Shown here piece after piece: positions 6,001-9,000 of a DNA stretch of 31,603 nt. Source of the stretch: a virus (lineage: Duplodnaviria > Heunggongvirae > Uroviricota > Caudoviricetes); IMG/VR virus record IMGVR_UViG_2740892231_000003. One strand, written 5' to 3'. Positions within the stretch are counted from its first letter, which is position 1. Every line of letters starts with the position of its first letter. A program made the position numbers.

Positions 6001-9000
6001 CGTCACGATGTTTGGTATTTTCAAAAAGAAAACCCGCAGAGCAGCAGCGGAAATTAAAAAGTTTGAGAAACGCGATCTGGCACAGGCGGTTATTAATGCT
6101 GCCTACCTGGTAGCCTATGCAGATGGTGAATGTGAGGCTTCAGAGAAAGCGAAGATCGAACAGGTATTACGTAACCAGCCTGCGTTGTCCGCGTTTACGT
6201 CAGAAATTAATGCCATCAGTGCCACGATCACAGGTCAGCTTGACACCAACTTTAAAATTGGTCGTCGAGCGGCGTTGCGTGAAATTGAAGATGTGAAACA
6301 CGATACGCGTGAAGCGGAAGATGTGCTGGATGTGGCGGTGGCTATTGCTGAAGCAGATGGTGAAATTGAGCCGGAAGAGCGTAAGGTTCTGGAAGAGATT
6401 GCTGGTGTTCTTGGCCTGCGACTGGAGAACCACCTGTGACGGTAAAACTGCGTCTGGCCGCTGTGGCACTCCTGCTGTTTCTGGTGGTGATGGTGGATTT
6501 CACCACCAGGATCATGTCGGTGCTGGCGGATGGAGTGCTGGTGGTCGGTATTGTGGTGGTGCTTTTTCCTTTGGTGAAAAAGGACATGCCAGGTAGTTAG
6601 CCGGGTATCAGTCATGCCCCGAAAATTTTAAATGTCTCACAATTCAGACGGTTGACAGTTGTCTGTTTTGCGGGGAGTTTGTTAAAAGAAACAGGCATGG
6701 TGAATCCCCCTGAGCGGAGGGGCGACTGGTGCATTAGGTGTTATCTTTGATACCCAGGAAAGTAAACGCGCGGGTTTGGTGGCACCGGGCTGAACTCACC
6801 GGGAGGCACCCGGCATCATGCGCATGATGATACAGATACGCGGCTTTAGCCCCTCTCCGGAGGGGCTTTTATATGAATTTTGTAAGATATGAGTAAACTA
6901 ATTATGGACACTGTTGTTTTAGTCCGTAAGGGCATATTTGCAGAATGCAATGATTATTAAAGCATTCTTTCAATACGTTATCTGAATTTGCAGGACATTC
7001 CTGGCTGTTTTTGATTAAATCCCAGAATCTTTTATTGAATGGTACAACGTTGTAAATGGTTACAGGTAGCACTTTGTTATTAAGTACGATACCTGTGTGA
7101 GTCAACGTAAATATACTTTCAGGAGGTAAGAAAACATCCGATTGATACCAGATTATTAATTTTATTTTACTCCATATGGCTGAAAAAGATATTCCGCATG
7201 ATGGCTGGGTAACTGTATCAATCACAATCCACTTCATTTAGCCTCCTTATTTATGCTGTGCTGGTGATGTTCTGAAAAGTATAAATGATAATTTTGAATG
7301 TAAACCATAGAGCAGAATTATTTTTCTGATGTTGTTTATTGTTTATTTAAATACAGGTTTTTTATATCCCGTCTTGTAGTTTATCCATGCATACCTGCTT
7401 TATGATGAGGTTTTCATTTAAGGTATGGTTTTGTGTTTTTTTTCTGTATTGCATGTCAGGTATTTTAAAGAATTGTTTTTAATATGGTGGAAAGAACCAT
7501 GGCATTTAAACACTACGATGTGGTCAGGGCGGCGTCGCCGTCAGACCTTGCAGAGCGACTGACTCAAAAACTGAAGGAGGGGTGGCAGCCATTTGGCAGC
7601 CCTGTCGCCATCACGCCTTATACCCTGATGCAGGCCATTGCGGCGGAAGGTGATGTCACCACACCTGTGGTGGTGAAGCCGTCGGATGGAGAAGGCACAG
7701 TAATCAGCGCCACCAGCGACCCGGAGTNNNNNNNNNNTGATACACTTGCTCAAAAAATTCGTGAAGGATGGCAGCCATACGGCGGGCCGTTTTCTTCGTA
7801 TACGGATGATGGCGCAGCACTTATTCAGGCGATTGTCGCAGAAGGTGATGTGAGCACACCTGTGGTGGTGAAGCCGTCGGATGGAGAAGGCACAGTAATC
7901 AGCGCCACCAGCGACCCGGAGTATTACTTTGTTGTGGTTCTGGCAGGGCAGTCAAACGGCATGTCGTATGGTGAAGGCCTTCCGCTGCCGGAGACATATG
8001 ACCGTCCGGACCCGCGTATTAAGCAGCTGGCGCGCCGCAGTACGGTGACACCGGGCGGTGCCGCCTGTAAGTATAACGACATTATTCCGGCGGACCATTG
8101 TCTGCATGATGTGCAGGACATGAGCCGTCTTAACCATCCGAAAGCGGACCTGTCAAAGGGGCAGTACGGAACCGTGGGGCAGGGGCTGCATATCGCCAAA
8201 AAACTGCTGCCGTTTATACCGGCGAATGCGGGCATTCTGCTGGTTCCGTGCTGCCGTGGTGCTTCGGCATTCACAACGGGTGCAGACGGCACATACAGCG
8301 AATCAGCCGGTGCATCGGAAAATTCACTGCGCTGGGGTGTGGGTAAGCCGCTGTATCAGGATTTGGTGAGCCGGACTAAAGCCGCACTGGCGAAGAACCC
8401 GAAAAACCGTCTGCTTGCGGTGGTGTGGATGCAGGGAGAAGGTGATGCGGCAGTGGGGACGCATGCGCAGCATCCGGGGCTGTTTAGTGCGATGGTGAAT
8501 CAGTTCAGAACGGAGCTTGCCGGTCTGGCATCACAGAGCACAGGAGGCAGCGCATCAGCGGTACCGTGGATTTGCGGGGACACAACGTATTTCTGGAAGC
8601 AGCGTCATGCGGAAGGGTATGCATCAGTATACGGAGGGTATAAGGGTAAGGAGTCGCAGAACATTTTCTTTGTACCGTTAATGACGGATGAGAATGGTGC
8701 GAATGTGCAGACCAATAACCCGGCAGAAGACCCGGACCTGGAAGCCGTCGGTTATTACGGTTCAAAGTGGCGTAATGACCAGAAGACCTGGACATCTGTG
8801 GACAGGGCCAGCCATTTCAGTTCATGGGCTCGCCGTGGGATTATTTCCGACCGTCTGGCAACGGCGATTCTGGTGCATGCCGGGAGAACCGCTGAATTCA
8901 TTACCGGAAAACAGCCTGATACGGTGAAGCCCACCGGACCTTCCGGTGAAGGCCCGGAGAGAGAGCCGGAAGCCCCGGTCAGTAACCGAACCCTGATGAG

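What the first reader, a model, noticed from the sequence alone, without database searches (positions are those of the whole stretch)
6880..7480. AT-rich island with a minus-strand 111-aa ORF bearing a strong RBS, divergent from nanS-p copy 2
GC content drops sharply for about 600 bp (long A/T runs at 7240-7480). The only long ORF is on the opposite strand to all neighbouring late genes and has AAGGAGG spaced 5 nt from its ATG. An opposite-strand, compositionally atypical, independently initiated gene is the signature of a recently acquired moron. The protein has no features I recognise.
Basis: seen in the sequence. Interest (0 to 1): 0.45.

Follow-up and report, generated by a model that had tools for sequence, protein, structure and literature searches.

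The report
Prophage-borne IraL anti-adaptor gene
The AT-rich island carries a real but already known gene, a prophage copy of iraL/iraM, whose small protein blocks the adaptor RssB so that the stress sigma factor RpoS escapes degradation. Its apparent position inside a Shiga-toxin prophage comes from a scaffold join in a draft assembly.

Summary
Window 6870-7483 is 31% GC, the lowest stretch in the window. Its only long ORF, 6902-7237 on the minus strand (111 aa), has an AAGGAGG ribosome-binding site 4 nt from the ATG.

The protein is recognisable. It scores 158 bits against NCBIfam NF007393 (anti-adapter IraM, cutoff 121). It matches the IraM chain of the RssB-IraM crystal structure 8TWD at E=3e-32. 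It is 62% identical to K-12 IraM and 89% identical to the experimentally characterised IraL of E. coli CFT073, with the same length.

Its upstream region is homologous to the mapped iraL promoter and transcription start, not to the K-12 iraM promoter. RefSeq already annotates the near-identical protein (one residue different) as IraM. The 641-bp island occurs in 1446 of 5426 complete E. coli genomes.

The moron reading is supported. The cassette replaces about 250 bp of unrelated spacer between the STnc100 sRNA and nanS-p, and only 4 of 352 related phage records carry it.

The Stx context is not supported. The window is a draft scaffold with sixteen runs of 10 N. The stx1c block ends at one of them. 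In 7 of 7 closed genomes that carry both, iraL and stx1c lie 0.42-1.3 Mb apart.

Verdict: ordinary and already known.

The parts
6666..6878 (+). STnc100-family prophage sRNA. It forms the left border of the cassette and is convergent with iraL.
   Evidence: Rfam RF02076, 139.4 bits against a gathering score of 47. The same family directly precedes the slot in all other loci examined, with or without iraL.
6848..6867 (+). GC-rich hairpin followed by a T-run: the intrinsic terminator of STnc100. It lies 34 nt beyond the iraL stop codon on the other strand.
   Evidence: Terminator scan: 8-bp stem with 6 GC pairs, then TTTATATG. The hairpin is shared with CFT073 downstream of iraL. On the minus strand no U-tract follows it, so termination of iraL there is not shown.
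6902..7237 (-). iraL-type anti-adaptor gene, 111 codons plus a TAA stop.
   Evidence: NF007393 at 158 bits, cutoff 121. PDB 8twd_A (IraM) at E=3.1e-32. 89% identical to CFT073 IraL and 62% to K-12 IraM. dN/dS is 0.28 against CFT073 and 0.18 against K-12 iraM. The AF2 model superposes on 8twd_A with TM 0.87 and rmsd 1.4 A.
7242..7248 (-). Shine-Dalgarno AAGGAGG, 4 nt (CTAA) before the ATG.
   Evidence: Read from the sequence. CFT073 and ATCC 25922 have the weaker AAGGAAA at the same place.
7238..7270 (-). 33-nt 5' UTR. The inferred transcription start is the A at 7270.
   Evidence: By homology to the 5' RACE end of CFT073 iraL mRNA, ACATCACCAGCAAGGCATAAACAAGGAAACCA (PMC4045071). The window reads ACATCACCAGCACAGCATAAATAAGGAGGCTA. 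The paper's complementing fragment ends at +33, which matches this UTR length.
7278..7283 (-). -10 hexamer TATACT of the inferred sigma-70 promoter.
   Evidence: Identical in the window, CFT073, ATCC 25922 and phage 640R1. There are 7 nt between the hexamer and the inferred start.
7299..7304 (-). -35 hexamer TTTACA, with a 15-nt spacer to the -10.
   Evidence: Phage 640R1 has TTTATA here, which fits the '-35 point mutation' the iraL paper reports for a second copy. The assignment is inferred; the paper's figure was not available.
7305..7483 (.). AT-rich upstream region shared by all iraL alleles. It contains a PhoP-box-like repeat at 7333-7349.
   Evidence: The full 246-bp iraL-nanS-p intergenic region (7238-7483), which contains this stretch, is 91-93% identical to CFT073, ATCC 25922 and 640R1 and is not alignable with the K-12 iraM upstream region. 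TGTTTATTGTTTATTTA has 1 mismatch to the box; 244 of 5000 composition-matched shuffles give such a hit.
7484..7727 (+). Start of the nanS-p / SASA-family esterase gene (DUF1737 N-terminus). It forms the right border of the cassette and is cut by a run of N at 7728.
   Evidence: Homology to iraL-less phages resumes at about 7485. By coordinate offset from the alignment (my inference), the RefSeq start in STEC1590 corresponds to the second ATG at 7499. N runs are listed.
5270..5279 (.). Run of 10 N: the scaffold join between the stx1c-prophage segment (1-5269) and the iraL-prophage segment (5280 onward).
   Evidence: Window 1-5269 is 99.9% identical to the STEC1590 Stx1c prophage and the match stops at the N run. 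Window 5280-7727 is 99% identical to a different prophage. The N runs are present in the public record CCPU01000123.1.

Best explanation
The island is a self-contained lysogenic-conversion cassette (moron) of a lambdoid prophage. It encodes an IraL-type RssB anti-adaptor.

Shown here:
- The ORF is a member of the IraM/IraL family.
- It is under purifying selection.
- It keeps the residues that IraM uses to contact RssB.
- It carries the same promoter and 5' UTR as the characterised iraL of CFT073.
- It sits between the STnc100 sRNA terminator and nanS-p, antisense to the Q-dependent late operon.

Inferred from the characterised orthologue:
- In the lysogen the gene is transcribed from its own sigma-70 promoter during exponential growth.
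- The protein binds RssB and stops it delivering RpoS (sigma-S) to ClpXP.
- RpoS is therefore stabilised and the general stress response is pre-armed.

The stronger Shine-Dalgarno in this allele (AAGGAGG instead of AAGGAAA) may raise its output. The cassette belongs to a non-Stx lambdoid prophage. Its adjacency to stx1c in the window is a scaffolding artefact.
For: Family and fold:
- NCBIfam NF007393 'anti-adapter protein IraM' scores 158.1 bits against a cutoff of 121, covering residues 1-109.
- phmmer to PDB 8twd_A (IraM in complex with RssB) gives E=3.1e-32 over residues 1-78.
- The AF2 model matches 8twd_A with target TM 0.87 and rmsd 1.4 A. The next hits are PmrD structures.
- The protein is 89% identical to CFT073 IraL over 111 of 111 residues, and 62% identical to K-12 IraM.

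Selection and contact residues:
- dN/dS is 0.28 against CFT073 iraL and 0.18 against K-12 iraM.
- Of the 14 IraM residues that contact RssB (PMC10844676), 10 are identical. T13S, L75I and I64V are conservative, and H63N is changed. The pattern is identical to CFT073 IraL.

Promoter:
- The -35, -10 and start site align with the 5' RACE-mapped iraL start of CFT073, and the 33-nt UTR is the same length.
- The K-12 iraM upstream region is not homologous.

Function of the orthologue (PMC4045071):
- IraL co-purifies with RssB.
- It binds the RssB N-terminal domain in a two-hybrid assay.
- Its deletion halves the sigma-S half-life in log phase.

Conservation and context:
- The island is present in 1446 of 5426 complete E. 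coli genomes and is annotated IraM.
- The identical protein is indexed in 116 blocks of the assembly collection.
- The same slot is used in CFT073, ATCC 25922, phage 640R1, STEC1590 and 2013C-3181.
- In iraL-less phages an unrelated spacer replaces it.
Against: - Nothing was measured for this allele. It differs from CFT073 IraL at 12 of 111 residues.
- It is 93% identical to CFT073 iraL at the nucleotide level. The iraL paper reported at least 95% identity for its matches.
- The promoter has a suboptimal 15-nt spacer, and the generic promoter scan did not report it.
- No U-tract terminator follows the gene on its own strand.
- The AT-rich DNA could be silenced, for example by H-NS. This is from my own knowledge of K-12 iraM regulation and was not tested here.
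- The Pfam-A scan returned no family.
Confidence: 0.88

Rival explanations
1. The gene is a true cargo of the Stx1c-converting prophage. It would then be physically linked to stx1c and co-transferred with it, as the window's layout suggests.
For: In the window, stx1cA (622-1578; NF041693 at 724 bits) lies 5.3 kb upstream of the ORF. The rare allele co-occurs with stx1c in at least 7 closed genomes.
Against: - The stx1c block (1-5269, 99.9% identical to STEC1590) ends exactly at the N run 5270-5279, about 24 bp into the holin gene.
- The next block starts just after the prophage tRNA-Arg genes and matches a different prophage at 99%.
- At most of the sixteen N runs the sequence ending at the run recurs shortly after it, as happens at contig joins.
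- From 15586 the window returns to the STEC1590 Stx1c prophage at its lysozyme gene: 93% identity for the first short segment (15586-16245), then 99.4% from 16256 to 28796.
- In all 7 closed genomes that carry both, the two loci are 0.42-1.3 Mb apart.
- All 7 other contigs with the identical protein lack stx within 10 kb.
Confidence: 0.06
2. It works like K-12 IraM rather than IraL. It would then be silent in ordinary growth and induced by PhoP/PhoQ on Mg2+ starvation or at acid pH.
For: A PhoP-box-like direct repeat, TGTTTATTGTTTATTTA (1 mismatch), lies 63-79 bp upstream of the inferred start and is conserved in all iraL alleles aligned. K-12 IraM is PhoP-controlled (PMC10948607).
Against: - The upstream region is not homologous to that of K-12 iraM.
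- Such a match arises in about 5% of composition-matched shuffles of the 246-bp region.
- Over the whole window the count of matches is at chance level.
- The CFT073 orthologue with this same upstream region (-100 to +33) acts in log phase in LB.
- The two modes of regulation are not mutually exclusive.
Confidence: 0.1
3. It is a PmrD-like connector that protects a phosphorylated response regulator other than RssB, such as PmrA.
For: The fold resembles PmrD: 4hn7 with target TM 0.73, plus 2jso and 2rqx. The precomputed Pfam label of the homologues is PF11183, PmrD.
Against: - Sequence identity to PmrD is only 14-18%, against 57-65% to IraM.
- The RssB-contact residues are conserved.
- The 89%-identical orthologue binds RssB.
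Confidence: 0.02
4. It is a chance ORF in AT-rich non-coding spacer DNA.
For: 29 of 5000 shuffles of the island give an ORF of at least 111 aa, so length alone is not decisive.
Against: - Strong family, structure and orthologue matches.
- dN/dS well below 1.
- Nineteen 90%-identity clusters with conserved length and motifs.
Confidence: 0.01

Closest known systems
IraL of uropathogenic E. coli CFT073 (WP_000871291.1; Hryckowian et al. 2014, PMC4045071)
   Same: - 111 aa and 89% identical.
- The same -35, -10, start site and 33-nt UTR.
- The same slot in a lambdoid prophage: DUF3927, STnc100, iraL on the minus strand, then DUF1737/nanS-p.
- The same pattern at the RssB-contact positions.
   Different: - 12 substitutions: I10T, V20A, A35V, M51V, T70R, N73D, T83A, T85S, N90K, R96H, T98I and S110C.
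- A stronger Shine-Dalgarno, AAGGAGG instead of AAGGAAA.
- 93% nucleotide identity, below the 95% or more reported for iraL matches in 2014.
- This allele is rare: 20 of 5426 complete genomes match at 95% or more, against 1426 at 90-95%.
IraM (YcgW) of E. coli K-12, the PhoP-induced RssB anti-adaptor; structure 8TWD
   Same: - Same family model, NF007393.
- Same beta-barrel plus helix fold.
- 51 of 78 core residues are identical, and 10 of 14 RssB contacts are identical.
- The C-terminal motif CP-x9-C-x4-C-x4-CPYG is kept.
   Different: - 62% identity overall, and 4 residues shorter.
- The promoter region is unrelated.
- The location differs: beside the e14 cryptic prophage.
- IraM is reported to bind both RssB domains, while IraL binds only the N-terminal one.
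PmrD, the connector protein that protects phospho-PmrA
   Same: Shared fold: 4hn7 with target TM 0.73 and rmsd 2.1 A. The resemblance is also stated in PMC10844676.
   Different: 14-18% sequence identity and a different partner. PmrD has no Cys-rich tail of this form.
Lambdoid-prophage morons of the late region (stx, bor, AgvB/AsxR anti-sRNAs)
   Same: - Cargo lies between Q and the lysis genes and is compositionally atypical.
- It has its own expression signals and is variably present.
- AgvB occupies the very same slot and strand in two iraL-less phages.
   Different: - The product is a protein that acts on host proteolysis, not a toxin or an sRNA.
- It is transcribed against the late operon.

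Membership tests
IraM/IraL anti-adaptor family (NCBIfam NF007393) | Full-length match to the family HMM above the curated cutoff. | tested here: met
   158.1 bits against a cutoff of 121; residues 1-109 align to profile positions 1-112 of 114.
IraM/IraL anti-adaptor family (NCBIfam NF007393) | PmrD-like antiparallel beta-barrel with a flanking hairpin and a C-terminal helix (residues 1-78). | tested here: met
   The AF2 model has seven strands and helix 69-77, with core pLDDT of 64-79. Foldseek to 8twd_A gives target TM 0.87 and rmsd 1.4 A.
IraM/IraL anti-adaptor family (NCBIfam NF007393) | Conservation of the three clusters of RssB-contacting residues defined in the IraM-RssB crystal structure. 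| tested here: met
   10 of 14 are identical and 3 are conservative (T13S, L75I, I64V). One is changed (H63N), as it is in characterised IraL.
IraM/IraL anti-adaptor family (NCBIfam NF007393) | Binds RssB and stabilises sigma-S against ClpXP. | not testable with these tools
   Shown only for CFT073 IraL and K-12 IraM.
IraL subtype (as opposed to IraM) | Closer in sequence to CFT073 IraL than to K-12 IraM. | tested here: met
   89% against 62% amino-acid identity; 93% against 70% nucleotide identity.
IraL subtype (as opposed to IraM) | The iraL promoter and 5' UTR (mapped start, sigma-70 -10 and -35). | tested here: met
   The -35 TTTACA and -10 TATACT are identical, and the start context and 33-nt UTR are conserved. 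The intergenic region is 91% identical to CFT073.
IraL subtype (as opposed to IraM) | At least 95% identity to CFT073 iraL over the coding region (the property of all matches reported in 2014). | tested here: not met
   93.2% nucleotide identity. This is an observed property of the 2014 sample rather than a definition, so I treat this gene as a divergent iraL allele.
Prophage moron | A discrete insertion or replacement relative to related phages, with atypical composition. | tested here: met
   About 610 bp at 31% GC replaces about 250 bp of unrelated spacer in PPyecE_EH1910 and Stx1_9793. 4 of 352 phage records carry it.
Prophage moron | Its own promoter and terminator, and expression in the lysogen. 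| tested here: inconclusive
   The promoter is inferred by homology to a mapped start. No U-tract terminator lies on its strand. Expression cannot be tested here.
Cargo of an Stx-converting prophage | Uninterrupted sequence joining the gene to stx, or the same linkage in closed genomes. | tested here: not met
   An N-run join at 5270-5279 separates them. The two are 0.42-1.3 Mb apart in 7 of 7 closed genomes, and stx is absent from 7 of 7 other contigs.

The most novel reading that the evidence does not exclude
Two things that I did not find described in the papers I read remain possible.

(1) The slot between the STnc100 terminator and nanS-p may be a dedicated minus-strand cargo site. Lambdoid prophages would swap alternative modulators of host global regulation there: the IraL anti-adaptor (against RssB, raising RpoS) or the AgvB anti-sRNA (against GcvB).

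(2) The four invariant cysteines of the 'disordered' C-terminal tail (CP-x9-C-x4-C-x4-CPYG) may form a metal- or redox-sensitive switch. Such a switch would set anti-adaptor stability. In that case this allele, with its stronger Shine-Dalgarno and a fifth cysteine at position 110, would tune RpoS differently in the Stx1c STEC strains where it occurs.
Probability: 0.15. Interest if true: 0.4.

Novelty: already known. Interest (0 to 1): 0.14.

Why it matters
IraL raises RpoS in growing cells, so a lysogen is pre-armed against acid, oxidative and other stresses. For Shiga-toxin-producing strains this bears on survival in food and in the stomach.

The gene and its family are already known and annotated. 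The practical value of this check is threefold:
- It gives an 'unrecognised' ORF its name and likely function.
- It shows that the gene is not part of the Stx1c phage. It belongs to a second lambdoid prophage that co-occurs with the Stx1c phage in the same strains.
- It flags that the window is a chimeric scaffold. Other 'duplications' seen in it (two nanS-p, three lysozymes) should therefore not be read as biology.

Tried and rejected
- Pfam-A scan of the ORF: no family at E up to 1. The homologues nevertheless carry a precomputed PF11183 (PmrD) label.
- PADLOC defence models: no hit.
- PHROGs: only phrog_4407, 'unknown function'.
- tRNA scan of the window: none.
- Generic sigma-70 scan: it did not report the iraL promoter, which has a 15-nt spacer. 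The two sites it did report are not conserved features that I could support.
- Exact search for the CFT073 5' RACE string in the fetched loci: no exact hit. It was found with 2 mismatches in ATCC 25922, and with 6 differences by eye in the window.
- Alignment of the K-12 iraM upstream region to the island: no meaningful homology. I therefore rejected the idea that the K-12 PhoP-dependent promoter is present.
- PhoP-box search: one 1-mismatch hit, with borderline significance of about 5%. I keep it as a weak lead only.
- Direct Fur control: considered because IraL rises in a CFT073 fur mutant (PMC7157518). That paper links the rise to the stringent response, and I ran no formal Fur-box test, so I make no claim.
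- AF2 on the C-terminal tail: pLDDT below 50 for residues 80-111, so there is no structural clue to the role of the cysteines.
- AgvB as the universal alternative cargo: found in only 2 of 5 iraL-less loci at the gathering score, so I state it as 'some', not 'all'.
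Full report
**1. The observation**

The composition profile shows GC falling to 0.29-0.35 between about 6900 and 7500, with 0.50-0.60 on either side. The interval 6870-7483 is 31.3% GC, the lowest of all 614-bp windows in the 31.6-kb sequence (mean 50.7%, sd 4.7).

The only ORF longer than 34 aa inside the island is 6902-7237 on the minus strand: 111 aa, starting with ATG. Its ATG is preceded by AAGGAGG (reverse complement of 7242-7248) and a 4-nt spacer, CTAA.

Length alone is only moderately unusual. An ORF of at least 111 aa arose in 29 of 5000 dinucleotide-preserving shuffles of the island. All neighbouring genes are on the plus strand.

**2. What the ORF is**

The protein is not featureless.
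- It scores 158.1 bits against NCBIfam NF007393, 'anti-adapter protein IraM' (curated cutoff 121), end to end.
- It matches the IraM chain of the RssB-IraM crystal structure 8TWD at E=3.1e-32 over residues 1-78.
- An AlphaFold2 model built from 13 family sequences has a moderately confident core (pLDDT 64-79). The core superposes on 8twd_A with target TM 0.87 and rmsd 1.4 A, and the next hits are PmrD structures. The structure paper describes the same resemblance (PMC10844676).
- It is 62% identical to K-12 IraM. It is 89% identical, over the same 111 residues, to the protein encoded at CFT073 1343465-1343800. That gene lies in the potB prophage and is the iraL characterised by Hryckowian et al. 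(PMC4045071).

Purifying selection is evident. dN/dS is 0.28 against CFT073 iraL and 0.18 against K-12 iraM.

Of the 14 IraM residues reported to contact RssB, 10 are identical and 3 are conservative. One differs (H63N). The pattern is exactly that of CFT073 IraL.

RefSeq annotates the near-identical protein (99% identity, one residue different) in closed genomes as 'anti-adapter protein IraM'. PHROGs holds the protein as phrog_4407 with unknown function. PADLOC has nothing.

**3. Expression signals**

The 5' RACE end of CFT073 iraL mRNA is ACATCACCAGCAAGGCATAAACAAGGAAACCA. It aligns with the window's ACATCACCAGCACAGCATAAATAAGGAGGCTA.
- The inferred start is at 7270, giving a 33-nt UTR. This is the same length as in CFT073, where the complementing fragment ran from -100 to +33.
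- The -10 TATACT (7283-7278) and the -35 TTTACA (7304-7299, 15-nt spacer) are identical in the window and CFT073.
- The 246-bp intergenic region is 91-93% identical among iraL alleles. It cannot be aligned with the K-12 iraM upstream region.
- This allele has a stronger Shine-Dalgarno, AAGGAGG against AAGGAAA.
- A PhoP-box-like repeat at 7333-7349 has one mismatch but borderline significance. About 5% of composition-matched shuffles give such a hit, and the whole-window count is at chance level.

**4. The cassette and its slot**

Rfam places an STnc100-family sRNA at 6666-6878 on the plus strand (139 bits). Its terminator hairpin, 6848-6867, lies 34 nt from the iraL stop codon, so the two genes converge.

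In phages without iraL (PPyecE_EH1910 and Stx1_9793), homology runs through STnc100. It then breaks and resumes at the nanS-p ribosome-binding site. About 250 bp of unrelated, GC-richer sequence fills the gap. The island is therefore a replacement cassette of about 610 bp.

STnc100 precedes the slot in every locus examined, whether or not it has iraL. In two of five iraL-less loci the slot holds the AgvB anti-sRNA, also on the minus strand.

Only 4 of 352 phage records that match the surrounding 2.4 kb carry the island, and none of them is an Stx-converting phage. Among complete E. coli genomes, 1446 of 5426 carry it. Of these, 20 match at 95% identity or more (this allele) and 1426 at 90-95% (the CFT073 type).

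The family is confined to Escherichia, with 19 clusters at 90% identity.

**5. The Stx context is an assembly artefact**

The window is the public draft record GCA_000752815.1 CCPU01000123.1, and the sixteen runs of exactly 10 N are in that record.
- At most N runs the sequence ending at the run recurs shortly after it, as expected at contig joins.
- Window 1-5269 is 99.9% identical to the Stx1c prophage of STEC1590, and the match stops at the N run about 24 bp into the holin gene.
- Window 5280-15574 matches a different lambdoid prophage, mostly at 98-99% with some stretches at 91-92%. It starts just after that prophage's tRNA-Arg genes.
- From 15586 the window returns to the Stx1c prophage at the lysozyme gene: 93% for the first short segment, then 99.4% from 16256 to 28796.
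- In STEC1590, STEC1585, STEC1589, JNEC-KY202, strain 48, CFIAFB20190157 and FHI_NMBU_11, the iraL island and stx1c are 0.42-1.3 Mb apart.
- Seven other contigs encode the identical 111-aa protein. All show Q, methylase, tRNAs, two small ORFs, TerB, DUF3927, iraL and nanS-p, with no stx.

The 'second' nanS-p and the three lysozyme copies are products of the same scaffolding. The island itself lies wholly within the uninterrupted segment 5280-7727, so the gene and its immediate neighbours are sound.

**6. Mechanism**

By orthology, the protein binds RssB and prevents it from handing RpoS to ClpXP. For CFT073 IraL the published evidence is co-purification with RssB, a two-hybrid interaction with the RssB N-terminal domain, and a halved RpoS half-life in log phase on deletion. 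For IraM, the crystal structure shows occlusion of the 4-5-5 face of the receiver domain and remodelling of the linker.

Membership, contact-residue conservation and promoter identity are shown here. Expression in log phase, RssB binding and RpoS stabilisation by this allele are inferred. Because the gene is antisense to the late operon, Q-dependent read-through after induction would be expected to interfere with it. That is inference only.

**7. Comparison and verdict**

This is a divergent allele of a known, characterised and routinely annotated gene, located in its usual place in a lambdoid prophage.

Three of its elements are not supported: 'recently acquired', 'no recognisable features', and the Stx-phage setting.

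Two small points seem not to be covered in the papers I read.
- The four C-terminal cysteines (C81, C92, C97, C102; CP-x9-C-x4-C-x4-CPYG) are invariant across the whole family. They lie in a tail that the structure paper removed as unstable and that AF2 cannot model.
- The same slot and strand are shared with AgvB in some phages.

Novelty: already known. Interest: low.

Noticed in passing
window 5270-5279, 7728-7737, 9193-9202, 10146-10155, 12190-12199, 13415-13424, 13503-13512, 13911-13920, 15575-15584, 16246-16255, 28659-28668, 28797-28806, 29204-29213, 30415-30424, 31171-31180, 31517-31526: There are sixteen runs of exactly 10 N, and they are present in the public record CCPU01000123.1. At most of them the sequence ending at the run recurs shortly after it. 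The lysozyme gene appears three times (10609-11142, 15614-16147, about 16283-16818). The window is a reference-like scaffold of contigs from at least two prophages, so gene 'duplications' in it are not reliable.
   Followed up: yes
window 1941-2152, 2214-2427 and 6666-6878 (+): There are three STnc100-family sRNA copies (Rfam RF02076; 138.7, 198.4 and 139.4 bits). Two lie in tandem between stx1B and the first nanS-p, and one abuts the iraL cassette. STnc100 preceded the nanS-p slot in all 12 loci examined.
   Followed up: partly
L005 2401-2462 (-) and L006 2687-2746 (-), the positions that correspond to window ~6880-7480: In two iraL-less phages (PPyecE_EH1910 and Stx1a phage Stx1_9793), the slot right after STnc100 holds the AgvB anti-GcvB sRNA (RF02702). 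It is on the same minus strand as iraL. Three other iraL-less loci had no Rfam hit there. The slot may be a swap site for regulators of host global networks.
   Followed up: partly
window 6905-6997 (-), protein residues 81-111: Four cysteines in the pattern CP-x9-C-x4-C-x4-CPYG (C81, C92, C97, C102) are invariant in all 13 aligned family clusters, down to 61% identity. The tail was removed as unstable for crystallography, and AF2 gives it pLDDT below 50. This allele adds a fifth cysteine, C110. A metal or redox role is untested.
   Followed up: partly
window 7333-7349 (+): A PhoP-box-like direct repeat, TGTTTATTGTTTATTTA (1 mismatch), lies 63-79 bp upstream of the inferred iraL start. It is conserved in all iraL alleles aligned. 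About 5% of composition-matched shuffles give such a hit. The closed genome 2013C-3181 lacks about 45 bp around window 7340-7374, which overlaps it.
   Followed up: partly
window 7242-7248 (-): The Shine-Dalgarno is AAGGAGG in this allele and in STEC1590. It is AAGGAAA in CFT073 and ATCC 25922, and AAGGAAG in phage 640R1. The change may raise translation of the anti-adaptor.
   Followed up: no
window 7484-9217 (+), around the N run 7728-7737: The nanS-p ORF shows two consecutive DUF1737-like N-terminal segments; the motif PVVVKPSDGEGTVISATSDPE occurs twice. Relative to STEC1590 there are about 195 extra bp flanking the N run. This is probably a repeat that the assembler could not resolve, not a real domain duplication.
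   Followed up: partly
closed genomes STEC1590, STEC1585, STEC1589, JNEC-KY202, strain 48, CFIAFB20190157, FHI_NMBU_11: The rare iraL allele (at least 97.7% identical to the window island) co-occurs with stx1c in at least 7 of the 20 complete genomes that carry it at 95% identity or more, although on a separate prophage. This may reflect lineage structure rather than function.
   Followed up: partly
window 6905-7237 (-): A Pfam-A scan of the window protein gives no family at E up to 1. The precomputed annotation of its homologues lists PF11183 (PmrD). The PmrD model evidently detects this family only weakly.
   Followed up: no
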